Part shown: positions 3,504 to 28,855 of the stretch, one piece after another
Layout of the letters: each line of letters begins with the position of its first letter
Numbering within the stretch: position 1 is the stretch's first letter
Origin: Candidatus Bathyarchaeota archaeon
Lineage (GTDB): Archaea > Thermoproteota > Bathyarchaeia > Bathyarchaeales > Bathycorpusculaceae
Direction of reading: 5' to 3'
Assembly: GCA_963782525.1 (NCBI GenBank)
Contig: CAWAKC010000003.1
Span: 96,001 to 160,000, forward strand
Length of the DNA stretch: 64,000 nucleotides
Notes under the pieces: model-generated
What the model saw: the letters and a program-made list of their open reading frames with translations, nothing else
Told to the model about the DNA's origin: nothing
The model's database searches: none
Program-made: the position numbers and the translations under genes

Positions 3504-3554
3504 AATGGCAAATCATAAAAACTCCAAGAACGCTTCAAAGAGAGAGAGCCAATA

Positions 3555-15807: not shown

Positions 15808-17049
15808 TTATTTTCTTGTTTGACCGTCGCCCAAAATCACATATTTTGTTGTGGTGAGGTGCTGGGCGCTCATAGGTCCACGTGCATGAAGTTTTTGGGT
15901 GCTTATTCCGATTTCAGCGCCTAAGCCGAATTGGTTGCCGTCGGTGAAGCGTGTGGATGCGTTCCAGTAGACTGCTGCTGAATCGACTTCTTTTATGAAT
16001 TTCATGGCTTTGGCGAAGTCGCGGGTTAGGATGCTATCGCTGTGTTTGGTTCCATATTTGTTGATGTGCGTGATGGCTTCATCAAGGTTTTGGACCACTT
16101 TTACGCCTATGATTAAGTCGAGGTATTCGGTGCCCCAGTCTTTTTCGGTTGCAGCTTTTACGTCGGGGAGGATTTTGCGGGTTTCTTCGTCGCCACGGAC
16201 TTCCACGCCGTTCTTGCGTAACTCGGCAATAACAACAGGCAGGTATTGTTTGGCGATTTTGCTGTGAACTAGTAGTTTCTCGGCTGCGTTGCATGTTCCG
16301 GGGCGCTGACATTTAGCGTTTATTACGATGGGGGTTGCTTTGTCGAGGTCTGCGTCATCTTCAACGTAAACATGGCAGTTGCCCGTTCCAGTTTCAATGA
16401 CGGGAATCCGCGATTTCTCAACTACAGTCTTGATTAAGTCTGCACCGCCACGGGGTACCAGCACATCAATGTATTCTCGCATGCCCATCAATTCCTCTGC
16501 AACTTTTCGGTCTGGAGAATTCACCACTTGGATAGCGTCGACAGGTACCTTTGTTCCAGATAAGGCATCTCGCAACACTTCGCCGATGGCGACGTTGGAG
16601 TTTAACGCGTCTGAACCGCCTCTTAGAATCACGGCATTCCCCGATTTGATACAGATTCCTGCTGAATCCGAAGTGACGTTGGGACGTGATTCGTAGATTA
16701 CGCCGACTACTCCGAGGGGAACGCGGACTTGGCTGATTATTAAGCCGTTTGGGCGTGTCCAGCTGCTAAGGATGACGCCGATGGGGTCGGGAAGCGCTGA
16801 AACCTCGCGAAGTTCTTTAGCCATGTTTTCGATTTTCTTGTGGTCCAACGCTAAACGGTCAAGTAGTGCTGCTTTGACGCCTTTGGCTTTTGCAGCTTCA
16901 GCATCCGTTTTGTTAGCAGCCAAAATCTTCTCTGCGTTCGCTTCCAAGGCGTTTGCCATTCTGCAAAGCGCTACATTTTTGGCGTCCGATGAAAGCTTAC
17001 CCATTTCGAAAACGGCTGTTTTGGCTTTTAGGCATATTTCCTTTATCAT
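15808..17049 (-). CDS. proA: Gamma-glutamyl phosphate reductase
   Basis: VPLGVVGVIYESRPNVT, CNAAEKLLVH, NASTRFTDG, GAEIGISTQKLHARGP. Confidence 0.97.
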   Translation of the reverse strand: MIKEICLKAKTAVFEMGKLSSDAKNVALCRMANALEANAEKILAANKTDAEAAKAKGVKAALLDRLALDHKKIENMAKELREVSALPDPIGVILSSWTRPNGLIISQVRVPLGVVGVIYESRPNVTSDSAGICIKSGNAVILRGGSDALNSNVAIGEVLRDALSGTKVPVDAIQVVNSPDRKVAEELMGMREYIDVLVPRGGADLIKTVVEKSRIPVIETGTGNCHVYVEDDADLDKATPIVINAKCQRPGTCNAAEKLLVHSKIAKQYLPVVIAELRKNGVEVRGDEETRKILPDVKAATEKDWGTEYLDLIIGVKVVQNLDEAITHINKYGTKHSDSILTRDFAKAMKFIKEVDSAAVYWNASTRFTDGNQFGLGAEIGISTQKLHARGPMSAQHLTTTKYVILGDGQTRK

Positions 17050-18185
17050 TTTTCTTCCTCAAGTAGGTGGATGTTTCGGTGCTCAATAACATCTTTAGAC
17101 TTATCGGCGCCGAGTTTTTTGTGTACTTCAGTTACTTGTAAGCCTTTTATTAGGTTTAACTCGCTGCTGCTGAAGTTGGGATTGCCCTTCGCAAACGCTG
17201 CGCCTTCTTCGTCAATGAGGCTTATTACTTCGCCAACACTAAAGTTGCCCACAACTCGTACTACCCCGACGGGGAGAAGGCTGGAGCCGTCAAGAATGGC
17301 TTTTTTTGCGCCCTCGTTAACATGAATTTGACCTTTCACCGCAGCACCATAAGCTATCCAACGTTTCACCGCGGGCATGCGACTTTGAGGCTTAAAATAG
17401 GTGCCAACATCTTTACCCGCAAGAATATCCAATATGACGTTTTCTCTTCGGCTATTTGCTATTACCACGGCTATGCCGCAGGAAGTGGCAATTTCAGCGG
17501 CTTTGATTTTGCTTTGAATGCCGCCTCTCCCCAACTTGCTCTTGCCATTCAGCGAGCTTTTGAGTTCGGTGGTGATTTCGTCGACGATTTTGATGAGTTC
17601 GGCTCCTGGTTGGGAGGGATCAGAAGTGTACAATCCCTCAACGTCAGAGAGGATGATGACTAAGTCGGCGCAGACTGCTCCAGCAACGAGCACTGAGAGG
17701 ATGTCGTTGTCGCTGAAATTTACTTTGTAGCCTTCAGTCCGCATTAATTCGTCCACTGAGACCACGTCGTTTTCGTTTATGATTGGGACGACACCGATTT
17801 TAAGCAGTAAAGCCAGGACGTCGCAGGTGTGAACGTATGATGCCCTGCTGGAGAGGTCCTCGGCAGTTAGGAGGATTTGAGCAACTTTCAAACCAAATTT
17901 TTTAAAAAGCTCCCGATACTTTGCCATCAAAACGCTCTGCCCCGTGGCTGCGGCTGCCTGCTGGAACGCTACATCTTTAGGTTTGGGAGGGATTTCAAGC
18001 TCTGCGATGCCAGCCGCAACTGCTCCTGAAGTTACAAGAACTATTTTGTCGCCTTGTTTGGTGGTTTTGGCTATTTGGCTAGCTAGGTTTTCCATTTCTT
18101 TTTCATCCAGCTTGCCATCGCGGGTTATGCCGTTGGTGCCAACTTTAACAACTATTAACCGACTATTACTTTTATTTGAGTTAAT
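17046..18185 (-). CDS. proB: Glutamate 5-kinase (with PUA domain); 5' end replaced by the integrated element, no canonical start before the kinase motif
   Basis: Frame extends upstream of the ORF-track ATG (18095) through RLIVVKVGTNGIT to a TGA at 18194; also VTSGAV, INENDVV, DNDILS, GGIQSK. Only ATT (18185) or ATA are available as starts ahead of the VVKVG motif. Confidence 0.9.
   Translation of the reverse strand: MNSNKSNSRLIVVKVGTNGITRDGKLDEKEMENLASQIAKTTKQGDKIVLVTSGAVAAGIAELEIPPKPKDVAFQQAAAATGQSVLMAKYRELFKKFGLKVAQILLTAEDLSSRASYVHTCDVLALLLKIGVVPIINENDVVSVDELMRTEGYKVNFSDNDILSVLVAGAVCADLVIILSDVEGLYTSDPSQPGAELIKIVDEITTELKSSLNGKSKLGRGGIQSKIKAAEIATSCGIAVVIANSRRENVILDILAGKDVGTYFKPQSRMPAVKRWIAYGAAVKGQIHVNEGAKKAILDGSSLLPVGVVRVVGNFSVGEVISLIDEEGAAFAKGNPNFSSSELNLIKGLQVTEVHKKLGADKSKDVIEHRNIHLLEEEK
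18145..18158 (+). repeat. att site (proB-body side) TTAACAACTATTAA
   Basis: Identical to 26440-26453; reads L-I-V-V-K on the minus strand in the proB frame. Confidence 0.88.
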
Positions 18186-18216
18186 CTCTAATCAGCCTTC
18201 TTTTTACATTTTGATT

Positions 18217-18399
18217 TTATCTTACTGTTCCTGTTTTGGCTAAGAACTGTTTGATTAATTCTTCATCGTTCATTATGGGTTTAGAGTCGTGTTTTCTCAC
18301 TCGGCAAAGTAGGACCCGGAAGCCTTCGAGTTTGTCGCCTGTTTCTATGTATTTTTTGATAATTTGCCGTTCACTTGGAGTTAAGATATAGTCACGCAT
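18217..18399 (-). CDS. Small hypothetical protein (element, possibly DNA-binding)
   Basis: 60-aa ORF MRDYILTPSERQIIKKYIETG with GGTGA RBS. Confidence 0.7.
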   Translation of the reverse strand: MRDYILTPSERQIIKKYIETGDKLEGFRVLLCRVRKHDSKPIMNDEELIKQFLAKTGTVR

Positions 18400-18420
18400 T
18401 GTAAGTTTTCACCTGTGTAT

Positions 18421-18523
18421 CATTGGTTGATATGGTTATTTAACCATTACTATTGTGTAACATTGGTTAATTTCAACCATAGTAACGCTTAAATAACACT
18501 TCTGTGTTACAATGATTGTAACA
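18421..18523. promoter_or_regulatory. Divergent promoter with palindromic operators
   Basis: ATGGTTA-tt-TAACCAT (18432-18447) and TGTTACAAT-g-ATTGTAACA (18505-18523) between divergent small genes. Confidence 0.6.
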
Positions 18524-18538
18524 AGGAATTGAAGCAAA

Positions 18539-18664
18539 ATGAGCGCACAAATAACCCAAACAAAAAAAGTCTGCCCTGAATGTGGCGGCAAACTCGAATA
18601 TAATATTGCTTATGGAACCGACGACTGCATTGAATGTGGTCACGTCGAAGGCAACAGCGACTAA
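18539..18664 (+). CDS. 41-aa zinc-ribbon protein (not in ORF track)
   Basis: MSAQITQTKKVCPECGGKLEYNIAYGTDDCIECGHVEGNSD with two CxxCG motifs. Confidence 0.7.
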   Translation: MSAQITQTKKVCPECGGKLEYNIAYGTDDCIECGHVEGNSD

Positions 18665-18679
18665 GGAGCTGTGATTTAA

Positions 18680-18964
18680 TTGATAAAATACACTAAAGAA
18701 CAAATCAACACTATTCTAAACCTTGAAGGCTGGCTCAAAACCCAGATCGACGTCTTCAACCTCTACGCGGTCCTCACAATCGGCGTATCAAACAACTTTA
18801 AGGAATGGGAAGTTAAACAGAAAACCTACAGCGAAAAGCCACTATCCATAACTCTTGAGGACTTTGTCAACTGCACATCTAAAGCCGCTGTCAAAAAACA
18901 ATTCAAGAAGATCATGGCGAAAGCTGTTTCAGCGGCTATGTTTCCAGGAGACAAGGTTTTTTGA
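18680..18964 (+). CDS. Hypothetical protein (element)
   Basis: 94-aa ORF after an AAGGAG RBS. Confidence 0.6.
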   Translation: MIKYTKEQINTILNLEGWLKTQIDVFNLYAVLTIGVSNNFKEWEVKQKTYSEKPLSITLEDFVNCTSKAAVKKQFKKIMAKAVSAAMFPGDKVF

Positions 18965-19125
18965 CTTGTCTTTTCTGGGACCGCTGCCTTTCGCGGTCAA
19001 CTCATAGAAGCTTATGCAGTACTGATGGGTCAACCTGTAAAATTCACGTTGAAATCGAACGCCTCGAGAACATTGGCAAAAATAGAAATATAGTAATTCT
19101 CAACGTGTTTGGAGGTGAAAATTAA

Positions 19126-19278
19126 ATGAAAACATTTACATTCAACTTAAGCGCCAGAAAACTTCAAGCGTTAAATGAAAGAGCGGAGCTTATGGGAATA
19201 ACCCCAGAAAAGTTACTGTGCGATTTAATCAGCGAACATATCCAAAACACTGTTCTAGTGATTGCTGAAGACAGTTAA
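19126..19278 (+). CDS. 50-aa ribbon-helix-helix/CopG-like protein (not in ORF track)
   Basis: Perfect GGAGGTGA RBS at 19111; MKTFTFNLSARKLQALNERAELMGITPEKLLCDLISEHI shows a beta-helix-helix pattern. Confidence 0.7.
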   Translation: MKTFTFNLSARKLQALNERAELMGITPEKLLCDLISEHIQNTVLVIAEDS

Positions 19279-19449
19279 GAAAAGACTTAACCCTCATTTT
19301 CTTTTTTTGTTAAAGTCACCGAATGTTTTAAGTGTGGATTGCGCTTGAGCGAGTTTTTACCCTCTTCTCAGCTCAAACGTAATTCACACTCCTGCCCATT
19401 TTAGAAACTTTAAAAGAAATTAAAATAAAAAAAATAAAAGAGTTGAAGT

Positions 19450-19755
19450 TTAGAAAGGCTTTGATATTCTGCCTAATCCATCGGTGGTGAAGGATTGGCT
19501 TTTTCCGGCTGAAAAAGGTATGCGTTCGGCAGGTTTTGCAGGTTCAGTCTTTGGCGTTGGCTCCGGTTCAATTTGTAATTGAATCATTTTGCCGCCGTAC
19601 AAAAACAGTTTGTCTGCGAATTGTATCGGCTTGAAATGCTCGACCCAATTGTCTAAGTCTAATTGATTTTTAAATATTAAAAAGTAATCAAAATGGTTTG
19701 GGTAGCCTACGCCTGACTTCAATGTTGGTTGTGTGATTGATTGTTTTTTGCTCAT
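19450..19755 (-). CDS. Hypothetical protein (element)
   Basis: 101 aa with GAGGTGA RBS. Confidence 0.7.
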   Translation of the reverse strand: MSKKQSITQPTLKSGVGYPNHFDYFLIFKNQLDLDNWVEHFKPIQFADKLFLYGGKMIQLQIEPEPTPKTEPAKPAERIPFSAGKSQSFTTDGLGRISKPF

Positions 19756-19777
19756 TTTTTCACCTCTTTTTTCATGC

Positions 19778-20149
19778 CTATTTTTTGTTCTGGTCTATTT
19801 TCCAGGGGTTTTTTGCGTTATAATAATTATTCATTGGAACGTTAAACAAAGTATTGCCAATAGTGAGCTCTGGAAGAGGCTCTGGCATTGCAGTGTAGGT
19901 TGAATCTGTTGGTTTGATGATTTTTCCGCCTATCATGCCGGGCTTTTCCCCAAATACGGAATTGCCCAGGGTTAAGTGTTTGTTGTCGAGAGAATTTGGG
20001 ATTTCTTGACGTTGCGGTGCTTGGGTTTGTTGTCTGGTTTGAAGTCTTCCGAGGACAACATAGAGTTGTTCCAGAGAAAAATCGCTGTAAGAGTCGTTTT
20101 CCTTTGTGATTCCGTTGATTTCTCTTATTATTTTTTGCCGTTCGCTCAT
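19778..20149 (-). CDS. Hypothetical protein (element)
   Basis: 123 aa with internal repeat LTLGNSVF/LTIGNTLF. Confidence 0.65.
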   Translation of the reverse strand: MSERQKIIREINGITKENDSYSDFSLEQLYVVLGRLQTRQQTQAPQRQEIPNSLDNKHLTLGNSVFGEKPGMIGGKIIKPTDSTYTAMPEPLPELTIGNTLFNVPMNNYYNAKNPWKIDQNKK

Positions 20150-20213
20150 GTGGTTCGCTTCTAATTAATTTGGAGTTTATTCGAGGCTTTATGTCTAAAA
20201 ACGACATATTTTA

Positions 20214-20675
20214 TTATTCGTTTTCGCTTTGCTCGGCAAACGATCTATCTGTCCCTCTGAAAAGATAGGAGTCGAAGTGGGTATTTGTGCGACATCCGCC
20301 TTCCACGAAGCAGCGAACGCGGCAACCGTCCTCATATCCCATCGAAGAGTAAACTAAGTATTTTGAACCATGCAAACCGCACTTGTACTTTATTATTCTG
20401 CCCTGCTTGCCAAGGTCCAGCCGGCAAATTGCTAGTCCATGCCTAATCTTTTTTTGGCCATATTTCTGTAAGATACGTTGTTTATCGTCTTTGCTCCTTG
20501 AAAAATAGAAGCCTTGAATTATTTCTGTTAGTTCTGGGGCTGTTAGATAATTGCCTCTTCGACCTTGCCTTCTCTTTGGTTTTCCTGTTGAATTAAACTG
20601 GATTGTTGAGGCTTCAATTAGAAAAGGGTTGGTTGATGGTCGAAAGTTTAAGAGTTGGGTTTGGGTTTGCCTCAT
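20214..20675 (-). CDS. Basic hypothetical protein (element)
   Basis: 153-aa ORF in a co-oriented cluster. Confidence 0.6.
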   Translation of the reverse strand: MRQTQTQLLNFRPSTNPFLIEASTIQFNSTGKPKRRQGRRGNYLTAPELTEIIQGFYFSRSKDDKQRILQKYGQKKIRHGLAICRLDLGKQGRIIKYKCGLHGSKYLVYSSMGYEDGCRVRCFVEGGCRTNTHFDSYLFRGTDRSFAEQSENE

Positions 20676-20695
20676 ATGTCTCGAAAGGTTTGGTT

Positions 20696-21199
20696 TTAAC
20701 AGAGACTAAGCGGCCATCCATCATTTTTGTGCTTTAGTTTTTGTAGTTCGCTTTCACATCTCTTAAGATAATAGTATTCGTGCCTTGAAACGGCTATTTC
20801 GTGTTTGCTGATTATTTGTTTGTTTAAGATTTCAGCGTGTTCTTTGAGTTCTGTTAAAGCCATGTCTTCAAGGGCGGCGTCGCAGTAAGTTTTAGAAACT
20901 GCGTGTTGTTTCTCTAAGTGTTCTATGAAGTCGTCTGTGTTGTCGTATTCCCTGAAATGCTCAAATTCAATGGCTAGGTCAAGTGCGTCTGAGGCTGAGT
21001 GTTCGAGGCATCTTCTAACGCAACTGTATATAACTAGAACGTTATGTTTAGCGAGTGTTTGCTTGTAGGTTCCAACTTGCCGTAGATGTGAAAGAACGGT
21101 GTTAAAGCTGTGTTCGACTCGGTCAATTGAGACGCCTTTAGAAGTTACTGTTTGTTTCCTAATTTTTTTAATGTATGTTTTTTTAAAAGCCGATCTCAC
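20696..21199 (-). CDS. Hypothetical protein (element)
   Basis: 167-aa ORF. Confidence 0.6.
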   Translation of the reverse strand: MRSAFKKTYIKKIRKQTVTSKGVSIDRVEHSFNTVLSHLRQVGTYKQTLAKHNVLVIYSCVRRCLEHSASDALDLAIEFEHFREYDNTDDFIEHLEKQHAVSKTYCDAALEDMALTELKEHAEILNKQIISKHEIAVSRHEYYYLKRCESELQKLKHKNDGWPLSLC

Positions 21200-21238
21200 G
21201 AAAACTTAGGTTTTATGGTGGTGTAAAAAAACAACCGC

Positions 21239-21514
21239 TCATTGCAAACCCGCTTCTTTAGCATGCTTGTTAATTAACGCGGCTAACTCTTCAGACCTGA
21301 CTAACTCTTCAATTTCAGCCATTTGTTTATCGTATCGTTGTTCAGGCGTCAAAAACCTATCTGCTATTTCTTCAAGTTTACTTAATTCAATTAGTTCCTT
21401 GAGTAAACAATCAAGGGCTTCTGATCTTTGCTTCTGTTCTTCAGCTTCTTTATCGGTTTGTGGCTGAATTTTCGCTTCAAGGCGAGCAACTTTGTTTTTT
21501 AAACTGCCACTCAT
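21239..21514 (-). CDS. Coiled-coil hypothetical protein (element)
   Basis: 91 aa, ATGA overlap with upstream gene. Confidence 0.65.
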   Translation of the reverse strand: MSGSLKNKVARLEAKIQPQTDKEAEEQKQRSEALDCLLKELIELSKLEEIADRFLTPEQRYDKQMAEIEELVRSEELAALINKHAKEAGLQ

Positions 21515-21768
21515 ATTTTACTCACCGTTTTCTCTAAGACTTCATGCCGCTGCTTAACCTGTTCAATATCTGCGTCGTTTAGGATTTTGCCGTATGCTTG
21601 AACTGCAGCGACAATTACTTTAGCCCATTTTTGCCGGTCAGAGTTAGAAGCTTTTTCCATATCGAATTTAGTCTTAGAAACGTCTATTACACCGCTTAAA
21701 CAGCGAAACAGCTTATCCCGTTGCTTCTTTGGTTCCAAGTTGCATGTATCTTGCGCCAATGTTATCAC
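21511..21768 (-). CDS. Hypothetical protein (element)
   Basis: 85 aa, translationally coupled to the next gene. Confidence 0.65.
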   Translation of the reverse strand: MITLAQDTCNLEPKKQRDKLFRCLSGVIDVSKTKFDMEKASNSDRQKWAKVIVAAVQAYGKILNDADIEQVKQRHEVLEKTVSKI

Positions 21769-21798
21769 ATCAAGTTTTTCGGTGATTACACCAAGTCT

Positions 21799-22110
21799 TT
21801 AGGTCTCGTCTTCTTTTGCTCTAACTTCTGCTATTTTTGCGCGAAGGTCTGTTAACTCCTTCTTAGTTAGCCGAGGAAATAATGTCAACGCTTTTTCATC
21901 TGAAGACCATTCAATTATCTGCCAAAACATTTCACGTGTTACAGCTAATTCTTGCTCGATTTTGGCTTCTTCCTCAGGAGTTAAGGTCTTCAGGTCTTCA
22001 TCCTCAGAGAGAAGATTACTTATCAATAAGTCTCGTAACTGTAGCCGTTCAAGTATTGGTAATTCGTTAAGTTTTTTCAATGTTATTTTTTCTTTATCTG
22101 ATTCGTCCAA
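21799..22110 (-). CDS. Acidic helical hypothetical protein (element)
   Basis: 103 aa with AAGGTG RBS. Confidence 0.6.
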   Translation of the reverse strand: MDESDKEKITLKKLNELPILERLQLRDLLISNLLSEDEDLKTLTPEEEAKIEQELAVTREMFWQIIEWSSDEKALTLFPRLTKKELTDLRAKIAEVRAKEDET

Positions 22111-22178
22111 GTTTTTTTACACCTTTCAATTTTTTAAATAAAAAAGAAAATTTGGTATAGTAACACAATAACACCTGT

Positions 22179-22295
22179 TTAAGCGCCTGTCTTTCTAATT
22201 ACCAGCCTACTGTTGCTGTAATTCTCGTTGAGCAGGTCTAAGAATCGTCTAGCAGAAGTTCCCCCAACTACTACCATAACATCGTTTCTTTCCAA
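22179..22295 (-). CDS. 38-aa peptide (not in ORF track)
   Basis: Perfect GGGAGGTGA RBS before TTG; MERNDVMVVVGGTSARRFLDLLNENYSNSRLVIRKTGA. Confidence 0.5.
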   Translation of the reverse strand: MERNDVMVVVGGTSARRFLDLLNENYSNSRLVIRKTGA

Positions 22296-22321
22296 ACTCT
22301 CACCTCCCGTCCGCTCTCTCC

Positions 22322-24145
22322 TTAAATTAAACTAACTTTGTAATCCCCTGTTTTATCTCGTGACCGCGTTATGTATCCGGTATAACTCTCAAGTTTGCAG
22401 AGAACCCTTGAAGCTTTCATTTTTGCGCCTGAAAATACTTCGTTAGCAATTTCGGTTTGATAGGCTGAACCACCTTTTTCTCTTAGATAGCGTAACAGTT
22501 TAACAGCGATTATGCGATGCTCTTTTTCTTTGGGAAATATAGTCATCAACTCTAACTCCATGTCTTTTACTATTTGTTCCAGTCCAATCCATTGAGTGAT
22601 GTTCTGTTTTGTTATCATTGAGCCCTCAACACTGTTTTCCAGAGCTATGTTGATGTAGTTTTTGAATCGTCTCATTATTCCCCGGCTGAGTGCTGCGATT
22701 TCAGGGATAGCATCTTTTTCAAAAGGATTATTTAACGGAAATCGGGAGAAAAAGTAAGACGTCATTTCGTCAGGAGTGAATGGTTTTAAGTCTATAACTT
22801 TCATTTTACCTAAAAAATGATGTCCATAGAATAGTTCTGCTTGGAAGAAAATAATCAAATTACCTTTTTGATTGTATACTCCGTCGCAGCCGTTGGTGCA
22901 AAGGTTGTTTTCCCAGAACGCTTGAATACCGTTAAGGTCTTTAGTCATTTGGTTAATGGTTAATCGGCTGTAGTCGCACAGATCAAGAATGAAGCTTCCT
23001 GTAGTTTCTATCTCTTCCATTATCTGCTTATTTTTTATTAGATTAACTTTTGTGCTGCCAAGAGTTTTTTCCATTAAAGGACATAGGTTAATTATTTTAT
23101 GCCAGAGATCAAAGTTGTCTGTAACTGTTGAAGAATCATTTTTGCGTGTGAAGAGGTAGTAGTCTTTGATATCTGTTGCGCTGTCTAAGCCTATACGTTT
23201 GCGGATATATTCAGCGATGTCAAATATTGCGTTTGACTGTGTGTGTTGTTCTGCATCTTTCCAAAGAGTCTCAAAAAGTTCGTGTATATAGGATTCATCA
23301 TATTCATCAAGAAATGATGTATCTTTACTTATTTTTTCTGCTATGTCTGTTTTTGGCTTTCCAACCCATTTCCATGACTGGATTTTTATGCCGTTTTCGC
23401 GTAAGTAATTACTTAAGGCCTCTTTTAACGCTGTTTTTCCAACGCCTTGGAGACCTTTTACGCCTATTAGGTTTCCGTTAGTTTTGAGGAGTCTTTGTCT
23501 TAGATTTATTCCTTCTTTTGTCCAGAGATATTCCTCTTCTTCGTGTGATTCTGTGGTTAATCGACAGCTCCATTGATAGATTGCATCTCTTGTTTGATTT
23601 TTCCAGAAGGTAAGGGTTGCTTCATCTATTCTATTAACGGTTGGTTGGGGTGGTGTTATTGTGTTACTCGTTAGGGGAACGGTTTGAGGTTTACTTATCT
23701 GAATAGGAGTTGGTTGCACTGTTATTGTGTTACTGGGTGTTGATTCTTTCGAGTAATTGTTTATTATCTCGTCGTCGGTAACGTCTTTTCGGAATGGGTA
23801 GCTTGCTCTAAAATTCGCTATTATGCCCGCCCTTTCAGATTCTGGAATTGTTGTTTTGGTTGGTTGTCGCTCTGTATGTTTTTTTGAAAGGTTCGCCGTC
23901 ATTTCATCGTAGCTGTCATAGTTGTCATAGGTGTCATCGTCGTCTAATTCTTCTTCTTGATCTGGGTTTTGGGATTTATTGAAAGCTTCTACTGTTTCAT
24001 TTAGTCCCGGTGGGCTCGGTTCGCCTTCTTCTAAGCCGAGAATCTCTCGAATAGTCGCCACAAAAACCTCTGCCTCTGGATATCGACTATGAAAATAATC
24101 TATTGCTTCCTGAACTGTTTTAGGCTTCTGATTTACCTTTGACAT
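22322..24145 (-). CDS. P-loop (AAA+-like) ATPase with C-terminal winged helix; candidate replication initiator of the element
   Basis: Walker A GLQGVGKT, Walker-B-like FILDLCD, lid SRGIMRR, C-terminal HTH YQTEIANEVFSGAKMKASRVLCKLE. Confidence 0.7.
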   Translation of the reverse strand: MSKVNQKPKTVQEAIDYFHSRYPEAEVFVATIREILGLEEGEPSPPGLNETVEAFNKSQNPDQEEELDDDDTYDNYDSYDEMTANLSKKHTERQPTKTTIPESERAGIIANFRASYPFRKDVTDDEIINNYSKESTPSNTITVQPTPIQISKPQTVPLTSNTITPPQPTVNRIDEATLTFWKNQTRDAIYQWSCRLTTESHEEEEYLWTKEGINLRQRLLKTNGNLIGVKGLQGVGKTALKEALSNYLRENGIKIQSWKWVGKPKTDIAEKISKDTSFLDEYDESYIHELFETLWKDAEQHTQSNAIFDIAEYIRKRIGLDSATDIKDYYLFTRKNDSSTVTDNFDLWHKIINLCPLMEKTLGSTKVNLIKNKQIMEEIETTGSFILDLCDYSRLTINQMTKDLNGIQAFWENNLCTNGCDGVYNQKGNLIIFFQAELFYGHHFLGKMKVIDLKPFTPDEMTSYFFSRFPLNNPFEKDAIPEIAALSRGIMRRFKNYINIALENSVEGSMITKQNITQWIGLEQIVKDMELELMTIFPKEKEHRIIAVKLLRYLREKGGSAYQTEIANEVFSGAKMKASRVLCKLESYTGYITRSRDKTGDYKVSLI

Positions 24146-24160
24146 TTTAAAAGCAGCCTA

Positions 24161-24385
24161 TTACTCTGTTGGGGTTGGGTTGGCGAAAACAATTTTGAGG
24201 TAGCGTTCGCTCCGGGTTTGAAAGATTATACGAGCATTGGTTTCTTCAAGTATGAATTTCTTGATTCGTTCAAACTCGGAGGCTGTAGTTTTTAGGATGC
24301 AGCCAGCGAAGTTTATGTTTTCGGCTGGGTCGATTGTGGGTTTAGAGTTTTTAAAATGGAATCCATATTCTTGTTCTTCAGTCAT
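24161..24385 (-). CDS. Hypothetical protein (element)
   Basis: 74-aa ORF upstream of the ATPase. Confidence 0.6.
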   Translation of the reverse strand: MTEEQEYGFHFKNSKPTIDPAENINFAGCILKTTASEFERIKKFILEETNARIIFQTRSERYLKIVFANPTPTE

Positions 24386-24461
24386 TTCAATTCAATTCCT
24401 GAGCTTTTAGCTCAAACTATTTGGTCTAAAACTCTGCAACTAACCTACGCTTTGTTTTAGA

Positions 24462-24498
24462 GTATACCTCTCCAGACCGAGGTATACAATAGTATACT
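24462..24498. promoter_or_regulatory. Inverted-repeat operator between divergent element genes
   Basis: GTATACCTC-N8-GAGGTATAC plus palindrome AGTATACT. Confidence 0.55.
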
Positions 24499-24540
24499 AC
24501 TCATAACCTTAATAAGTCTTTTTGCTTAGATTAAGTCTGG

Positions 24541-24981
24541 ATGTGTATACTTGTGGTCGGTAAACTTGAGGTTGCGGCATTCATTGCAGAAAAGAAGAAA
24601 GCGACTTGGAGCGAATTAGTTAGGCAACTTGTTAATATTCCTTCAAAATTTGTTTGTCCTAGCTGCAAATCGTCGCGTATTGTTGAGGATCGGGAAGCTC
24701 AAGAATTTGTTTGTGTGGATTGCGGAATTGTTGTAAATTCTGGAAATCGAATAGCAAGACAAACTCTTCTTGATTATCTTAAGGCATTGATTAAAGAGGG
24801 GATCGTTGAAAAAGTGATTGATAAGGAAACGTTGAAACCTGTTTACCAAGTGACTGAAACGGGCCGCAAAAAGCTTAATGATTTACAAAATAAACAACGA
24901 GCAATTGAAATGATTCTTAAAACATCGGATCTTAGGCAAACATTAAAAGAAATTCTGAAAAACATGGAAAATAAAAGTTAG
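24541..24981 (+). CDS. Winged-helix regulator with an inserted TFIIB-type zinc ribbon
   Basis: CPSCKS..IVEDREAQEFVCVDCGIV inside a wHTH (RQTLLDYLKALIKEGIVEK...YQVTETG). Confidence 0.7.
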   Translation: MCILVVGKLEVAAFIAEKKKATWSELVRQLVNIPSKFVCPSCKSSRIVEDREAQEFVCVDCGIVVNSGNRIARQTLLDYLKALIKEGIVEKVIDKETLKPVYQVTETGRKKLNDLQNKQRAIEMILKTSDLRQTLKEILKNMENKS

Positions 24982-25013
24982 CTGTTTTTTAGTTTGGGTT
25001 TGTGTTTCATGGT

Positions 25014-26381
25014 TTAAGCCTGTTTTTTGTTGAGTATTTGTTTTGCTAAATCAAGCTCTTTCTGCAGTTTATCAGCTTCAGCCGTTAGGTATTGTTCAGA
25101 TTCCCGCGCTTGTTTGGCGAGCGGTGAATTGATGGCTTCAAGTTTTGGCGCTGTCTCTGCATGTAGGTCTCGAGTTCGACTGTAAACTCTTAGTTGTCTC
25201 TCAGCTATTCCTATTAATGGAGTCACAACTGTTCTTAAATCCAGTAATTCTTCTTTGAAGGCTTCAAGTTCTAAGCTTTTTTCCATTACATCTTTAACTA
25301 AAGCGTCGATTATTCGTTCTTTCACTTCAAAACGGTTCTGTAATTCAGTAAGTTTTTTAGAGTCTTCAGTGTTGGCGGTTTTTCCAGACATTTCTTCTTT
25401 AGAACTTTTCTCAATTTTCAAAAATTCCTCAGCACTCAAGTATAAAGCCCTCAGATCATCCGTTGGCATATTCAAGTAAGCCAAATTTTGAGCGCCTATA
25501 GAGTGACCCATCCAGAACTGTCTTAATTCTTGATCAATTTTCCCCATTAACCGAGAATTAAAAGCAGCCCTCAACGAATGAGGCCGCGCTGGGTTGAAGC
25601 CACCATTCTGTTTAATAAAACTCAAGTCCTTTGCCATTTCCGAAAAACTTTGCTGGACCGCACAATCGGTTATTCTTTCCTCACCACCTCTTAATCGTTC
25701 CTTAACAAACAAAGGACTTTCAGGGTTGAGGTCTTTTCTAGTCGCCAAATACAAGCGCAAATAATATACGGCGTCTCTACCAAAGAACGTTTTAAATTTT
25801 ATCTGAGTTTTCTTCCGTACAAGTTTTAGGTAAAGCGGCAAAGTTCCTTTTTCTAACTCTTCCTGGACGTCTCCATAATTCAATTCGATTATTTCATTGA
25901 TACCTAGCCCAGACTGGAATATGCAGAGGATTAAGGCTTTTTCGCGGTAACTTGGGGATTTATCGACAAACTCTTTTATTTGTTCTATATGCCATTCGTG
26001 TTTTTCATTGATTTTTTGACCAACCGGCGAGGGCATGTTCCCGATAAAATCCATAGAAACCATAATTTGCTTAAACTTTAAGAAATTCTGCATGGCTGCA
26101 AAGTAAACCCTAACTGAATTGTTAGAGTTCCCTTTTTGTTTTAGGAATTCAATGTATTCCTTTAATTCTGTTTCAGCGACGCGTTTACGTTCGCGGAGAG
26201 GCTTTTTGAATTCTTCAAAGATATTGTTTAAGAAATCGTTAAAGTTGTGGGTTTGTCCATATTTGCCTTGGTAATACTCTAAGAATAGTCTGAAGCCTGT
26301 TGCGTAGGCTTCGCGGGTTGGTTTGCTTTTGAATGATAGGTACTCTTCAACTTCTGCCTCGAATTTTGGTTTAATTACCAA
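25014..26381 (-). CDS. Tyrosine recombinase/integrase of the proB element
   Basis: N-terminal core-binding domain, RDKA-like REKALILCIFQSG, RKKT, PHSLR, WMGH, AY; adjacent to att. Confidence 0.9.
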   Translation of the reverse strand: MVIKPKFEAEVEEYLSFKSKPTREAYATGFRLFLEYYQGKYGQTHNFNDFLNNIFEEFKKPLRERKRVAETELKEYIEFLKQKGNSNNSVRVYFAAMQNFLKFKQIMVSMDFIGNMPSPVGQKINEKHEWHIEQIKEFVDKSPSYREKALILCIFQSGLGINEIIELNYGDVQEELEKGTLPLYLKLVRKKTQIKFKTFFGRDAVYYLRLYLATRKDLNPESPLFVKERLRGGEERITDCAVQQSFSEMAKDLSFIKQNGGFNPARPHSLRAAFNSRLMGKIDQELRQFWMGHSIGAQNLAYLNMPTDDLRALYLSAEEFLKIEKSSKEEMSGKTANTEDSKKLTELQNRFEVKERIIDALVKDVMEKSLELEAFKEELLDLRTVVTPLIGIAERQLRVYSRTRDLHAETAPKLEAINSPLAKQARESEQYLTAEADKLQKELDLAKQILNKKQA

Positions 26382-26435
26382 ACGTTAACCTCAGTTTAAT
26401 AGCGATTGCAACCTTAATAAAACTTGTTGTATTAC

Positions 26436-26465
26436 TTACTTAACAACTATTAATCTCGAAGGCAT
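26436..26465 (-). pseudogene. proB: Displaced native 5' end of proB (MPSRLIVVK*)
   Basis: GAGTG-ATG CCT TCG AGA TTA ATA GTT GTT AAG TAA; joins in frame to VGTNGIT via the 14-bp repeat. Confidence 0.85.
26440..26453 (+). repeat. att site (integrase side) TTAACAACTATTAA
   Basis: Identical to 18145-18158. Confidence 0.88.
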
Positions 26466-26629
26466 CACTCTATCACTTTTGGTTAGACTTATTTGAAATA
26501 GGGTTGGCTTGCTTAAAAATGCAACCAAACACGGAAACAAAAAATTTGTTTTCTATACTTAAAATTCATGTTTTTGATGTGTAACAGCTAATTTTTTTTG
26601 GAAAAATATATAAGGAATATGGACACCGC

Positions 26630-28855
26630 TTGTCAAATATGTTCATACCCTTACAAGCTTTAGCATCATTATCGGTTAATCCAGTTGTCTTTTGGATTGC
26701 ACCAATCGCCGGCGTCATAGCAGTTGTTGCTTCGCTTTTACTCATGTACCGAATAGGCAAAATGAGTCCAGGCGGACCAAAAACAGTTGAAGTCGGCAAC
26801 GCAATCAGGGAAGGCGCCTACGCTTTCCTAAAAAGACAATACAAAACAATCGCCATAATTACAGTAGTTATTTTTGCTCTACTGTGGGTCGCTTTGCCAA
26901 GCGGTCCTTACGGTGTAGGCACCGCAGCAGCTTTTTTGGTAGGCGCAGTTGCCTCCTTGGCTGCAGGCTACATTGCCATGGATAACGCGACAAAAGCAAA
27001 CGTTCGTACCGTGGCAGCAGCAAAAGACTATGGCGCTGAAAAAGCGTTAAAAACTGCATTTTACGGCGGTGCCACAATGGGCATGGCCGTTGTTGGTTTA
27101 TCCTTGTTGGGTGTAAGTTTTCTGTTCTTGCTTTACGGTGGTTTTAACGCCTTGTTCAATACAATGGATGTCACTACCGCAGCTCAACTCGGAAGAGACG
27201 CAGCAAGCGGAATCGTCGGCATGGGTTTTGGCGCCTCATTGATTGCGTTGTTTGCCCAGCTTGGAGGCGGAATTTACACTAAAGCCGCAGATGTCGGCGC
27301 AGACCTTGTAGGCAAAGTTGAAGCAGGCATCCCTGAAGATGACCCACGCAACCCCGCTGTCATAGCTGACAATGTTGGAGACAACGTAGGGGACTCAGCT
27401 GGAAGGGGTGCGGACTTATTTGAATCTGCGACTGGAGAGAACATCGGAGGCATGATTATCGGCGGCTTAATCAGCATCGCCACAGGAAACCTCATTTTCC
27501 TGATTTTCCCGCTAATCGCACGAGCCTTAGGAATCTTTGCAACATTAGTCGGCATGCCATTCGTAAAGCTCAACGCGTCAGAAGCCAAGCATCCAATGAA
27601 GGCACTAAGAAAAGGTCTTATGGTAACAACCATAGTTTCAGGCATTCTGTTCTTGTTTGCAACGATTTTCCTGTTAGGTGAAGGCTCATTCTCCATGACC
27701 TTCCTGTACCTGTACTTCTGCTTACTTGCAGGCTTAGCAGCATCAGTGGCAATCGACTATATTACTGATTACTACACTGGAAGCGACAGAAAACCAGTCG
27801 GCAGAATAGCTAAAGCCAGCGAAACAGGCGCCGCAACCAACATCATCACAGGCTTCGCAGTAGGGCTCGAAACAACAGCACTGCCAATAGTATCACTAGT
27901 CATCGCACTCATAGTATCGTACTTCTTTGGCACGCAATTTGCTATCTCCTGGAACGCTGACCCAGCCCACGTAGCTTCACAAATTACGCCTTTCATAGGT
28001 GGAATTTATGGAACCACACTTGCAACAATGGGTATGCTCGCAGTCATGGGAATGGTTTTAGCCTTAGACGGCTTTGGACCAATCGCAGACAACGCTGCAG
28101 GAATAGCTGAAATGTCAGGAGAAGGCGGCGCAGAAGAAACCATGGAAGCATTAGACGCGGTCGGCAACACAACAAAAGCCCTAACCAAAGGCTTTGCACT
28201 CGGCTCAGCTTTGCTCGCAGCGCAACTGCTATTCCAAACATACGCTTCAGAGGTTACCTTACGCACAGGCATACCCTTTGTCGTAGACATCTCTAATCCA
28301 GCAGTACTCATCGCAGGCTTCCTCGGTGCAATGCTACCATTTTTCTTCTCATCACAAGCAATTAGCGCAGTAGGAAAAGCGGCAGCAGAAATGGTTGCAG
28401 AAGTCAGACGACAATTCAGAGAAATCCCAGGCATCATGGAAGGAACCGGCAAACCTGACTACGGCAAAGCAGTAGACATCAGCACAAAATCCGCACTAAA
28501 AGGAATGGTGCTTCCGGGACTAATCTTGGTAATTTTTCCAATCGTAGTCGGTATCCTGTTAGGTCCTGAAGCAGTAGGCGCATTCGTAATCGGCGCAACG
28601 CTATCAGCAGTTCCATTGGCACTGTTCATGAACACTGGCGGAGGAGCATGGGACAACGCAAAGAAATTGATCGAATCAGGCAAATACGGCGGCAAAGGTA
28701 GCCCAGCACACGCAGCAGCAGTAGTCGGCGACACAGTCGGAGACCCACTTAAAGACACAGCAGGACCAAGCTTACACGTACTCATAAAACTGCTCAGTAC
28801 ACTATCAATCGTCTTCATCCCGCTGTTCTTAAACCTGCTACATCTAATCCACTAA
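26630..28855 (+). CDS. hppA: Membrane-bound pyrophosphatase, K+-independent H+-PPase type
   Basis: GGIYTKAADVGADLVGKVEAGIPEDDPRNP, GNTTKA (Lys indicates the K+-independent type), GGAWDNAKK, GDTVGDPLKDT. Confidence 0.95.
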   Translation: MSNMFIPLQALASLSVNPVVFWIAPIAGVIAVVASLLLMYRIGKMSPGGPKTVEVGNAIREGAYAFLKRQYKTIAIITVVIFALLWVALPSGPYGVGTAAAFLVGAVASLAAGYIAMDNATKANVRTVAAAKDYGAEKALKTAFYGGATMGMAVVGLSLLGVSFLFLLYGGFNALFNTMDVTTAAQLGRDAASGIVGMGFGASLIALFAQLGGGIYTKAADVGADLVGKVEAGIPEDDPRNPAVIADNVGDNVGDSAGRGADLFESATGENIGGMIIGGLISIATGNLIFLIFPLIARALGIFATLVGMPFVKLNASEAKHPMKALRKGLMVTTIVSGILFLFATIFLLGEGSFSMTFLYLYFCLLAGLAASVAIDYITDYYTGSDRKPVGRIAKASETGAATNIITGFAVGLETTALPIVSLVIALIVSYFFGTQFAISWNADPAHVASQITPFIGGIYGTTLATMGMLAVMGMVLALDGFGPIADNAAGIAEMSGEGGAEETMEALDAVGNTTKALTKGFALGSALLAAQLLFQTYASEVTLRTGIPFVVDISNPAVLIAGFLGAMLPFFFSSQAISAVGKAAAEMVAEVRRQFREIPGIMEGTGKPDYGKAVDISTKSALKGMVLPGLILVIFPIVVGILLGPEAVGAFVIGATLSAVPLALFMNTGGGAWDNAKKLIESGKYGGKGSPAHAAAVVGDTVGDPLKDTAGPSLHVLIKLLSTLSIVFIPLFLNLLHLIH

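What the first reader, a model, noticed from the sequence alone, without database searches (positions are those of the whole stretch)
18145..26465. Integrative element splits proB: possible excision-controlled switch for proline synthesis
Seen: a 14-bp direct repeat TTAACAACTATTAA (TTAA arms, 6-bp spacer) brackets an 8295-bp integrase element. On the minus strand both copies read LIVVK. At the far end is an orphan ATG stub, MPSRLIVVK*. At the near end, the proB body (VGTNGIT...) has no ATG/GTG/TTG upstream of its conserved kinase motif. Precise excision would give MPSRLIVVKVGTNG..., an intact proB under its native promoter. Known: elements that interrupt genes and excise to restore them exist in bacteria (skin in sigK, the comK prophage of Listeria), while archaeal integrases mostly target tRNA genes. 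Inference: this may be an archaeal reversible switch on proBA (proline or osmolyte supply), or simply a new protein-gene integration target.
Basis: partly seen in the sequence, partly recalled or inferred. Interest (0 to 1): 0.88.

Follow-up and report, generated by a model that had tools for sequence, protein, structure and literature searches.

The report
Mobile element splits archaeal proB gene
An 8.3-kb mobile DNA element with its own integrase sits inside the first codons of the proline-synthesis gene proB of an uncultured Bathyarchaeia archaeon; cutting it out exactly would restore the gene, but nothing yet shows that the cell uses this as a switch.

Summary
TTAACAACTATTAA occurs twice in the window, and twice in the whole 2.87-Mb genome, at 18145-18158 and 26440-26453. 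The 8281 bp between the copies encode a tyrosine integrase and no recognisable host gene.

On the minus strand the far copy ends a stub, MPSRLIVVK*. The near copy opens the glutamate 5-kinase body, LIVVKVGTNGIT..., which has no ATG, GTG or TTG upstream.

A sister genome, G010, has hppA-proB-proA with no insert. Its proB start is exactly the predicted join. Of 105 genus genomes that match this region, only G000 and G103 are interrupted. G103 carries a 1.6-kb insert without an integrase at the same codons.

This is a recent site-specific integration by a Bathyarchaeia cryptic integrative element. It most likely silences proB while integrated. The switch idea is untested, because no usable reads exist. 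It is weakened because the element is sporadic and because three near-complete genus members lack proBA altogether.

Archaeal integration into protein genes is known. Splitting a gene near its 5' end is the unusual feature.

The parts
15808..17049 (-). proA (glutamate-5-semialdehyde dehydrogenase), intact, overlapping the proB stop
   Evidence: Pfam Aldedh 4.5e-24. 99% identical to the G010 orthologue.
17046..18158 (-). proB body: codons 5 to the end of glutamate 5-kinase, starting LIVVKVGTNGIT. It has no promoter and no canonical start of its own.
   Evidence: TIGR01027 369 bits. AA_kinase plus PUA. Upstream frame read. 99.7% identical to G010 ProB.
18145..18158 (.). Core copy 1 (att core) at the junction of the element with the proB body
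   Evidence: Exact 14-mer. G010 has this sequence once, at the same place.
18159..26439 (.). Integrated element, 8281 bp between the two core copies
   Evidence: Absent from G010 and from 103 of the 105 genus genomes that match the site. No second copy in G000. Best DNA relative reaches only 82% over 0.77 kb.
18164..18171 (-). AAGTAATA motif, 5 nt from core copy 1, inside the element
   Evidence: 7 matches in the window against 3.1 expected, and 2 of them flank the cores. About 47 bp of this element end is homologous to the end of the G103 insert.
18217..18399 (-). 60-aa three-helix protein, transcribed towards proB, function unknown
   Evidence: Homologues lie in two other integrase-bearing loci, L046 at 64% and L095 at 40%. 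AF2 pLDDT 76, three helices. No fold match.
18539..18964 (+). Small plus-strand ORFs: a 41-aa zinc ribbon at 18539-18664 and a 94-aa ORF at 18680-18964. The module is shared with other genus genomes.
   Evidence: Pfam DZR 5.2e-5, below cut-off. Element positions 518-1084 are 69-79% identical to DNA in G108, G065, G109, G128 and G087.
19450..22110 (-). Seven minus-strand ORFs of 85-167 aa (19450-19755, 19778-20149, 20214-20675, 20696-21199, 21239-21514, 21511-21768, 21799-22110), no family assigned
   Evidence: No Pfam or PHROG match. Four of them have homologues in the same order in the G073 element.
22322..24145 (-). 607-aa protein: acidic N-terminal stretch, P-loop NTPase core and a probable C-terminal winged helix
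   Evidence: Pfam AAA_18 0.0012, below cut-off. The Atlas neighbours carry AAA_16, ATPase_2 or MarR; these are leads only. Homologues of 29-46% identity from Bathyarchaeota and Thaumarchaeota records, some with PF01047.
24161..24385 (-). 74-aa ORF conserved next to the integrase module in related elements
   Evidence: tblastn 38-48% to L045 and L046.
24541..24981 (+). 146-aa putative regulator with a TFIIB-type zinc ribbon and a winged helix
   Evidence: Pfam Zn_Ribbon_TF 9.5e-9, above cut-off. 71% identical homologue beside the integrase in G073.
25014..26381 (-). Tyrosine integrase, 455 aa, intact
   Evidence: PF00589 37.7 bits. PHROG 1 integrase 1.8e-14. R146, H268, R271, H293 and Y302 are invariant in 30 homologues.
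26430..26437 (-). AAGTAATA motif, 2 nt from core copy 2, inside the element, followed by the TTTTATTAA box upstream of int
   Evidence: The TAAGTAATA...TTTATTAA arrangement recurs upstream of the integrase in most of the 16 relatives printed.
26440..26453 (.). Core copy 2 (att core), inside the stub
26436..26465 (-). Orphan proB start: ATG, 8 further codons and a stop (MPSRLIVVK*). It points the same way as the integrase gene and ends 54 nt before the integrase start.
   Evidence: The upstream 333 bp is 96% identical to the G010 hppA-proB spacer.
26466..26629 (.). Native divergent hppA/proB promoter region
   Evidence: Alignment with the G010 empty site. The TCAAATAAGT box about 31 nt upstream of the ATG was read. 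Calling it a promoter is inference.
26630..28855 (+). hppA, membrane H+-pyrophosphatase, divergent neighbour of proB
   Evidence: Pfam H_PPase 3.6e-242. 95.7% identical to G010.

Best explanation
The host is an uncultured Bathyarchaeia archaeon. An 8.3-kb cryptic integrative element integrated by site-specific recombination, using its own tyrosine integrase. The integrase gene stays whole on integration. The attP and the chromosomal attB share a 14-bp core with partial dyad symmetry.

That attB is codons 5-9 (LIVVK) of proB. Integration therefore leaves the native promoter, the ATG and a 9-codon stub at one end of the element. At the other end it leaves a promoter-less, start-less but otherwise perfect proB body, followed by proA.

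Shown:
- the insertion, its exact boundaries and the empty site;
- the intact integrase and the identical cores.

Inferred:
- the event is recent;
- the element can still excise;
- proB is off while the element is integrated, so proline must then come from outside or by another route;
- precise excision would restore proB.

The element looks like an ordinary, sporadically distributed mobile element that uses a conserved coding sequence as its landing site. It does not look like a domesticated regulatory device.
For: - Site: the core is duplicated exactly, twice in the window and twice in the genome. G010 has hppA-proB-proA contiguous with the core once, and its ProB begins MPSRLIVVKVGTNGIT.
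- Genus scan: with the G010 site as query, G000 gives two matches, query 1-333 and 320-601, lying 8.3 kb apart and overlapping by the 14 bp.
- Integrase: the Pfam hit is above cut-off, R146/H268/R271/H293/Y302 are invariant in 30 homologues, and the gene is unbroken with the core 59 nt upstream of its start.
- Recurrent site: G103 has a 1.6-kb insert without an integrase at the same codons. Its two core-like sites share only TAATAG, which fits hybrid att sites and does not fit a target-site duplication. About 47 bp at its end is homologous to this element's end.
- Retargeting in the family: the 73% and 66% identical integrases (L059, L060) abut a 258-aa gene at about codon 26, next to a core that shares 11 of 14 bases with this one (L059). 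Relatives of 60-64% identity lie next to tRNA-Thr(GGT) or copies of its 3' end.
- Recent event: proB of G000 and G010 differ by dN 0.0012 and dS 0.048, and the body carries no stop or frameshift.
- proB off: no ATG, GTG or TTG lies between the upstream TGA and the motif. The first canonical start, M26, lies after the stretch that aligns with E. coli G5K residues 4-17.
- Loss is tolerable: G073, G080 and G085 (95-96% complete) have neither proB nor proA.
Against: - No read evidence exists for excision, a circular form or a mixed population.
- Inactivity of proB is inferred, not shown. An in-frame ATT at 18185 would give a 379-aa protein that keeps every conserved residue. The 60-aa gene is transcribed towards proB, so a read-through transcript could cover it.
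- In G103 the interrupted proB is still open. Its branch has dN/dS 0.094, against 0.046 and 0.040 for its sisters. This fits either a very recent insertion or continued function.
- No excisionase was recognised.
- Most element ORFs match no family, so 'cryptic element' rather than virus or plasmid rests on the absence of hits.
- G000 has P5C reductase. No ornithine cyclodeaminase was found. No other route to proline was sought.
Confidence: 0.8

Rival explanations
1. Regulatory switch, as in 'active lysogeny'. The element stays in proB as a reversible off-state and excises in response to a signal such as proline shortage or osmotic stress. This restores proB, as skin does for sigK or the comK prophage does in Listeria. 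One possible link: after integration, the native proB promoter and stub point straight into the integrase gene. Induction of the proB promoter could then raise integrase expression.
For: - Excision would rebuild the exact wild-type gene.
- The integrase and both cores are intact.
- The stub (26465-26436) and int (26381-25014) are on the same strand, 54 nt apart. No run of 5 or more T lies between them, and the scan found no terminator-like site on that strand.
- The proB body shows no decay.
- Close integrase relatives also split a gene near its 5' end.
Against: - Excision has not been observed.
- The element is not fixed at the site. Of 105 matching genus genomes, one carries it and one carries a remnant. 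G010, whose ProB is 99.7% identical, has the empty site.
- In L059 and L060 the integrase faces the gene body and not the promoter, so the promoter-into-int geometry is not a family trait.
- Several genus members lack proBA outright, so no switch is needed to explain tolerance.
- The terminator scan uses a bacterial model and says little for an archaeon.
Confidence: 0.1
2. Harmless integration. proB stays functional in the integrated state because the element end supplies transcription and a non-canonical start (ATT at 18185). That would give a ProB with a new 9-residue N-terminus ahead of LIVVK. The element would then reconstitute its target, as 3'-end integrators do.
For: - With the rare start codons of table 11, a 379-aa ORF runs from ATT at 18185 and keeps the whole kinase motif.
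- The element-derived in-frame stretches of G000 and G103 resemble each other (NSNKSNSR and FNSKGSKAR before LIVVK).
- G103 keeps an open proB under mostly purifying selection although its insert lacks an integrase.
- The 60-aa gene is transcribed towards proB.
Against: - There is no ATG, GTG or TTG. By recall, ATT starts are very rare in archaea.
- The in-frame ATG 16 codons upstream of LIVVK is followed directly by TAA, and a TGA follows four codons further on.
- The similarity of the two element ends is at the DNA level and includes the AAGTAA motif next to the core. It is more simply explained as a recombinase-binding site.
- The G103 branch has roughly double the dN of its sisters at similar dS.
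Confidence: 0.07
3. Assembly artefact. The MAG contig joins a separate plasmid or virus contig into proB by chance.
For: The genome is a 12-contig assembly and no reads of the source could be laid.
Against: - A chance join would not duplicate 14 bp exactly so that both flanks fit the empty site of G010 to the base.
- A second, independent assembly (G103) is interrupted at the same codons.
- Both junctions lie well inside a 463-kb contig.
Confidence: 0.02

Closest known systems
Archaeal integrated mobile elements in protein-coding genes (Thaumarchaeota iMGEs, Krupovic et al. 2019, PMC6563490; review by Badel et al. 2021, PMC8371274)
   Same: Tyrosine-recombinase elements with short att sites (8-26 bp, median 17). 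They are defined by direct repeats plus comparison with an empty site in a relative. Targets include tRNA genes, intergenic regions and protein genes. Many are 'cryptic integrated elements' without viral or conjugation genes. I read passages of sections 3, 6 and 8 of PMC6563490 and the whole of section 19 of PMC8371274.
   Different: [quoted passage not shown] Here the core is at codons 5-9, so promoter and start are cut away from the whole gene. The host class is Bathyarchaeia. Table S2 of that paper, which lists the targets, could not be opened.
Gene-interrupting elements that excise to restore the gene in bacteria (skin in sigK, SPbeta in spsM, the comK prophage of Listeria; named from recall, and 'active lysogeny' appeared in the listing)
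   Same: An integrase element sits inside a coding sequence, and precise excision rebuilds an intact gene.
   Different: Those elements are fixed or common at the site in their species, and their excision is shown to follow a developmental or infection signal. Here the element is sporadic and excision is unobserved. My search for 'active lysogeny' with 'archaea' listed 9 papers; by their titles and abstract openings none describes an archaeal case.
pNOB8-type (type II) archaeal integrases, as opposed to SSV-type (type I) (classification recalled; the SSV property is stated in the abstract of PMC7253208 listed)
   Same: The integrase gene stays whole on integration, and the att core lies outside it, 59 nt upstream.
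   Different: Sequence membership in the pNOB8 clade was not tested. The best curated model hit is archaeal XerA at 75 bits, far below its cut-off of 220. The protein has a C-terminal extension of about 130 residues rich in E, K and L that varies among homologues.
Integrase-less remnants flanked by att sites (cis-mobilisable elements of bacteria; recalled)
   Same: The G103 insert is bounded by core-like sites, carries two cargo ORFs and has no integrase.
   Different: It is unknown whether it is a deletion remnant or a small element moved in trans. Its ORFs have no homologue in any locus held here or in G000.

Membership tests
Tyrosine recombinase / phage integrase superfamily (PF00589) | Match to the catalytic-domain profile above the curated threshold | tested here: met
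   37.7 bits against a cut-off of 27.1, residues 132-294. PHROG 1 integrase 1.8e-14.
Tyrosine recombinase / phage integrase superfamily (PF00589) | Catalytic residues R...H-x-x-R...H/W...Y | tested here: met
   R146, H268, R271, H293 and Y302 are invariant in 30 aligned homologues. Assigning them to the catalytic roles is from recall of the family motif.
Tyrosine recombinase / phage integrase superfamily (PF00589) | Catalyses recombination between attP and attB | not testable with these tools
   Only the products are seen: two identical cores and an empty site in G010.
SSV-type (type I) archaeal integrase | The att site lies inside the integrase gene, which is split on integration | tested here: not met
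   The integrase ORF is whole (455 aa, 25014-26381). The core is at 26440-26453, outside it.
Archaeal XerA (NF040815) | Score above the equivalog cut-off | tested here: not met
   75.4 bits against a cut-off of 220.
Glutamate 5-kinase ProB (TIGR01027) | Full-length match to the equivalog model | tested here: met
   The body scores 369.4 bits (cut-off 186) over profile positions 3-361 of 363. It aligns with solved G5K structures 4q1t and 2j5t (run with the G010 protein).
Glutamate 5-kinase ProB (TIGR01027) | One uninterrupted gene with its own start codon | tested here: not met
   The start codon and codons 1-4 lie 8.3 kb from the body. G000 has only one proB.
Excision-controlled gene switch (skin/sigK, comK prophage type) | The element interrupts a coding sequence and precise excision restores it | tested here: met
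   In silico only: the G010 empty site equals the predicted join.
Excision-controlled gene switch (skin/sigK, comK prophage type) | Excision is observed and depends on a physiological signal | not testable with these tools
   One run was found, with a word share of 0.06. It holds flanks of a relative only and shows no joints.
Excision-controlled gene switch (skin/sigK, comK prophage type) | The element is maintained at the site across the lineage | tested here: not met
   Of 105 genus genomes matching the site, only G000 and G103 (a remnant) are interrupted. The collection holds one genome per species, so variation within a species is unseen.
Cryptic integrated element (class used for Thaumarchaeota in PMC6563490) | Integrase plus att sites, and no capsid, packaging or conjugation genes | tested here: inconclusive
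   No such family was hit in Pfam or PHROGs. Eleven of the 15 element ORFs scanned match nothing, so the absence is weak.

The most novel reading that the evidence does not exclude
This would be a clade of Bathyarchaeia integrases that lands inside the first codons of housekeeping genes: proB here, and a conserved 258-aa gene in L059 and L060. These elements would act as reversible genetic off-switches. In the proB case the host promoter reads through the 9-codon stub into the integrase gene. Demand for proline would then trigger excision and gene repair. If so, it would be the first excision-controlled gene switch described in archaea.
Probability: 0.1. Interest if true: 0.8.

Novelty: new member of a known kind. 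Interest (0 to 1): 0.5.

Why it matters
- It gives a base-exact attB/attL/attR set for an integrase family of Bathyarchaeia, an abundant, essentially uncultured sediment class. My searches found viruses and one provirus described for this class, but no small integrative elements.
- An archaeal element can land in the 5' codons of a biosynthetic gene and cut it from its promoter. In the one systematic archaeal survey I could read, all protein-gene insertions were 3'-distal.
- The same codons were hit twice in the genus. Close integrase relatives use a similar core in another gene or sit next to tRNA-Thr. The family is therefore a natural series for studying how tyrosine integrases change target.
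- For annotation, a 349-aa 'proB' called from the internal ATG in this genome is most likely a dead fragment. Metabolic reconstructions would then wrongly score proline synthesis as present.
- If excision proves to be regulated, this would be the first archaeal case of a gene switch driven by a mobile element.

Tried and rejected
- Reads: the look-up of sequencing runs listed one DNA run (X1, word share 0.06) and no RNA holder. Laid at 88% likeness it covers only proA/proB and hppA, with many differences, so it is a relative. It covers nothing of the element except a trace at 25340-25906, and shows no joints. This gives no information on excision or expression.
- Integrase relatives next to proB: none. 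This covers the 20 genus loci L023-L042, four longer genus stretches around the closest of them (L043-L046) and 89 loci from genome, viral and metagenome collections.
- Circular contigs: none of those 89 loci has a terminal overlap of 15-200 bp.
- The 96% identical integrase P0001 lies on an 8257-bp contig of another source. I hoped this was a free copy of the element. The best homologue of the 607-aa protein is only 46% identical, so that contig carries other cargo.
- An exact 31-nt search for the int-proximal junction in viral contigs found nothing.
- Other copies, or CRISPR-spacer-like matches to the element in G000: none.
- No near-identical element occurs in the 119 other genus genomes. 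The best match is 82% over 0.77 kb.
- The 60-aa protein as an excisionase: the AF2 model from 3 sequences has pLDDT 76, and no Foldseek PDB match reached E of 0.001 or better. It stays unassigned.
- The 607-aa protein: no PDB sequence match better than E 0.4 and no NCBIfam hit.
- The att sites of the G073 element were not found. I dropped that line.
- Four genomes whose one search match began inside the core (G072, G100, G076, G055) were read. All have intact starts, MMV.KLVVLK or MTAKLVVLK, so they are not insertions.
- G016 and G118 'lack' proB only because a contig ends inside or next to it.
- dN/dS on the G103 branch is inconclusive.
- Supplementary tables of PMC6563490 were not available.

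Full report

Yes. TTAACAACTATTAA occurs at 18145-18158 and 26440-26453 and nowhere else in the window, even with one mismatch allowed. No shuffle out of 100 gave two matches. These are also the only two copies in the whole 2.87-Mb, 12-contig genome G000.

On the minus strand, 26465-26436 reads MPSRLIVVK*. The stretch 18230-18090 reads EQ*DKIKM*KEG*LEINSNKSNSRLIVVKVGTNGITRDGKLDEKEME. The body of the gene is therefore in frame with the second core copy. After the last in-frame stop there is no ATG, GTG or TTG until the ATG at 18095.

The body is a glutamate 5-kinase:
- TIGR01027 at 369 bits, cut-off 186, profile positions 3-361 of 363.
- Pfam AA_kinase plus PUA.
- It is followed by proA at 15808-17049 and faces hppA at 26630-28855 across the element.

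The 8281 bp between the cores have GC 0.37-0.41, against 0.46-0.50 in the flanking genes. The contigs as a whole average 0.41-0.44, so composition alone is a weak signal.

**2. Is it an insertion?**

Comparison with relatives settles this.
- All 19 loci of relatives read have a start codon four or five codons before the L-x-V-V-K motif. Nine of the 19 read exactly MPSRLIVVK.
- G010 has ProB 99.7% and ProA 99% identical to G000. Its hppA, proB and proA are contiguous, the core occurs once, and proB starts MPSRLIVVKVGTNGIT.
- I used 601 bp of that empty site as a query on all 120 genomes of the genus, and 105 matched. G000 gave two pieces, query 1-333 and 320-601, lying 8.3 kb apart and overlapping by exactly the 14-bp core.
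- The only other split match was G103. By my hand count of that table, about 65 genomes give one unbroken match from inside hppA into proB.
- Four genomes whose match began inside the core were read and are intact.

A chance misassembly would not duplicate 14 bp so that both flanks fit an empty site to the base.

**3. What is the element?**

Named homologues of its integrase come from records titled Candidatus Bathyarchaeia or Bathyarchaeota, and one titled Thermoproteota. Its genes are:
- A 455-aa tyrosine integrase next to one end. It hits PF00589 above cut-off, and R146, H268, R271, H293 and Y302 are invariant in 30 homologues.
- A divergently transcribed 146-aa protein with a TFIIB-type zinc ribbon and a winged helix.
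- A 607-aa protein with a P-loop core and probably a C-terminal winged helix. The Pfam hit is weak, the Atlas neighbours are leads only, and homologues are 29-46% identical.
- About ten small ORFs without any family.

Nothing resembling capsid, packaging or conjugation genes was hit. 'Cryptic integrative element' is therefore the fitting label, with the caveat that most ORFs are unassigned.

The integrase gene is whole and the core lies 59 nt upstream of its start. It is therefore not an SSV-type integrase, which splits its own gene. It also falls far short of the archaeal XerA model, 75 against 220 bits.

An 8-mer, AAGTAATA, stands inside the element 5 nt from one core copy and 2 nt from the other, in the same orientation. 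The int-proximal copy, followed by a TTTATTAA box, recurs upstream of the integrase in most of the 16 relatives printed. I take these as a recombinase-binding site and the int promoter. That is inference.

The 14-bp core has partial dyad symmetry. The TTAA arms pair perfectly, and 5 of the 7 mirrored positions pair in all (read).

No second copy of the element exists in G000, and no near-identical one in the 119 other genus genomes. G073 carries a syntenic but diverged relative, and several genomes share single modules.

**4. A second hit at the same codons**

In G103 (locus L049) the stub reads MPSRLIEFNR*. About 1.6 kb follow, holding two ORFs of 198 and 175 aa and no integrase. After that comes ...KARLIVVKVGTSGIT and a full-length proB-proA.

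The two core-like sites of G103 share only TAATAG. Their differing halves are what hybrid attL and attR sites look like when attP and attB are not identical. A transposon-type target duplication would give identical copies.

The last 47 bp or so of the G103 insert align with the matching end of the G000 element, including the AAGTAA...TCGG stretch next to the core. Its sisters G003 and G004 have empty sites. The proB start has therefore been used at least twice by related elements.

On the G103 branch, proB has dN 0.019, dS 0.204 and a ratio of 0.094. The sister branches have ratios of 0.046 and 0.040. dN is about doubled, but on small counts. This fits a recent inactivation, and it also fits continued function.

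**5. Targets of related integrases**

- None of the 20 genus loci, the four longer genus stretches around the closest of them or the 89 loci from the genome, viral and metagenome collections lies beside proB, proA or hppA.
- The relatives of 73% and 66% identity (L059, L060, from two contigs) abut a conserved 258-aa gene of unknown family. Homology begins at residue 26 of the G000 orthologue, and there is no start codon in frame. The junction core, TTAATTGCAGTTAA in L059, shares 11 of 14 bases with the proB core.
- Relatives of 64% identity (L050, L061) sit 213 bp from a tRNA-Thr(GGT) gene. In G097, at 60% identity, copies of that tRNA's 3' end bracket the region.
- Others end after the stop of a gene or in spacers.

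The family changes target readily. The two closest branches with readable flanks both cut a gene near its 5' end.

**6. What does integration do to the host?**

G000 has only one proB. The native promoter now drives only the 9-codon stub and then runs towards the integrase gene on the same strand. The gap is 54 nt, with no run of five T and no terminator-like site in the scan, which uses a bacterial model.

The body keeps all conserved residues, because the cut is before LIVVK. The stretch SRLIVVKVGTNGIT of the G010 protein aligns with residues 4-17 of E. coli glutamate 5-kinase, entry 2j5t. Translation from the first canonical start, M26, would remove that stretch. From recall of the amino-acid kinase fold, it carries the phosphate-binding Lys-x-Gly-Thr loop.

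The body could only be made whole from the in-frame ATT at 18185, giving a 379-aa ORF. I think that is unlikely but not excluded.

P5C reductase is present, and ornithine cyclodeaminase was not found. The integrated state therefore most likely means dependence on external proline or on a route I did not test.

This is plausible for the genus. G073, G080 and G085, at 95-96% completeness, have neither proB nor proA but keep P5C reductase.

**7. Age and mobility**

proB of G000 and G010 differ by dN 0.0012 and dS 0.048, and the body carries no stop or frameshift. The two cores are identical and the integrase is intact. The insertion is therefore young, and the element should still be able to leave.

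Direct evidence is missing. The one public run found holds only flanks of a relative. As a weak hint, in 15 or more metagenome contigs the integrase relative starts 177-422 bp from a contig end. That pattern is expected if assemblies break at polymorphic att sites.

**8. Comparison with what is known**

- The review of archaeal tyrosine recombinases states that attB sites in protein genes are known but untested. It asks whether such sites have dyad symmetry (PMC8371274, section 19 read in full).
- The thaumarchaeal survey found 39 tRNA, 15 intergenic and 14 protein-gene insertions. All 14 were 3'-distal, att sites were as short as 8 bp, and at least one case rebuilt the stop codon (PMC6563490, passages of sections 3, 6 and 8). 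Its Table S2 was not available.
- For Bathyarchaeia I found four virus families, two with integrases (PMC10848311, passages), and one 47-kb provirus (PMC11697101, passage). I found no small integrative element and no proB target.
- The searches behind this were: 'Bathyarchaeia, integrase, provirus'; 'archaea, integrase, proB, integration site'; 'glutamate 5-kinase, integrase, attB', 0 papers; and 'Bathyarchaeia, integrative element, tyrosine recombinase'.
- 'Active lysogeny' together with 'archaea' listed 9 papers. By their titles and abstract openings none describes an archaeal case.

The kind, an integrase element inside a gene, is well known, above all in bacteria. New here are the host class, the proB target, the 5'-end cut and the recurrent use of the site.

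**9. Verdict**

It is a real, recent, site-specific integration that splits proB, and it would be undone exactly by excision.

That it serves as a switch is possible, at about 0.1, but nothing here supports it. Its sporadic distribution and the natural loss of proBA in the genus make plain, tolerated disruption by a mobile element the better explanation, at about 0.8.

Interest is moderate. It is a clean and unusual archaeal att site with a testable hypothesis attached, not a new kind of system.

Noticed in passing
G000 contigs C1 (about 1682-3652) and C8 (about 6.1-8.1 kb of the contig, near its start); loci L023, L024: Two copies of a 2-kb stretch, 91% identical, each holding a 508-aa integrase-like ORF that is 26-27% identical to the element's integrase. 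Both lie near contig ends, so a repeated mobile element probably breaks the assembly there. A third paralogue lies at C4:38236.
   Followed up: partly
Genomes G073, G080, G085 (same genus): These 95-96% complete genomes have no proB and no proA but do have a P5C reductase dimer domain. Either proline is made from another precursor or these lineages need external proline.
   Followed up: partly
L142 = G016:C1:1-3000: The contig begins at the last codons of proB. The first 120 codons or so of proA match in two different frames (45% for query 1-124, 90% for query 123-413). This is either a frameshifted proA or errors at a contig end.
   Followed up: no
Metagenome loci L059-L063, L067, L071-L073, L083, L085, L090, L096, L098, L107: The integrase relative starts only 177-422 bp from a contig end in 15 or more contigs. 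Assemblies seem to break just outside the int-proximal att site, as expected for elements present in more than one state or context.
   Followed up: no
window 22159-22175, 23652-23668, 23720-23734: A perfect 17-nt inverted repeat (AGTAACACAATAACACC and its complement), with a third 15-nt copy. One arm lies upstream of the 607-aa gene and two lie inside its 5' part. It could be an operator or an origin.
   Followed up: no
L047 and L048 (G010 contigs C13 and C14): The hppA-proB-proA stretch is present on two contigs of G010, each 100% identical to the 601-bp query taken from C13. This is probably a duplicated contig in that assembly.
   Followed up: no
window 18176-18187 and 26487-26496 (minus strand): The element end next to the proB body carries TCAAATAAAAGT 21 nt before the core. 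It resembles the box TCAAATAAGT that lies about 31 nt before the native proB ATG (read). Whether it works as a promoter is unknown. A transcript starting the usual distance downstream of it would begin inside the core, with no in-frame start.
   Followed up: partly
L139:1426-2202 = G000:C4:62095-62871: A conserved 258-aa protein (MKQFLLTPQAGKRLIG...) with no Pfam or NCBIfam family. In other Bathyarchaeia contigs it is the landing site of the closest integrase relatives.
   Followed up: partly
window 18676-19242: This module of small plus-strand ORFs is shared at 69-79% DNA identity with five other genus genomes, G108, G065, G109, G128 and G087. The element is therefore mosaic.
   Followed up: no
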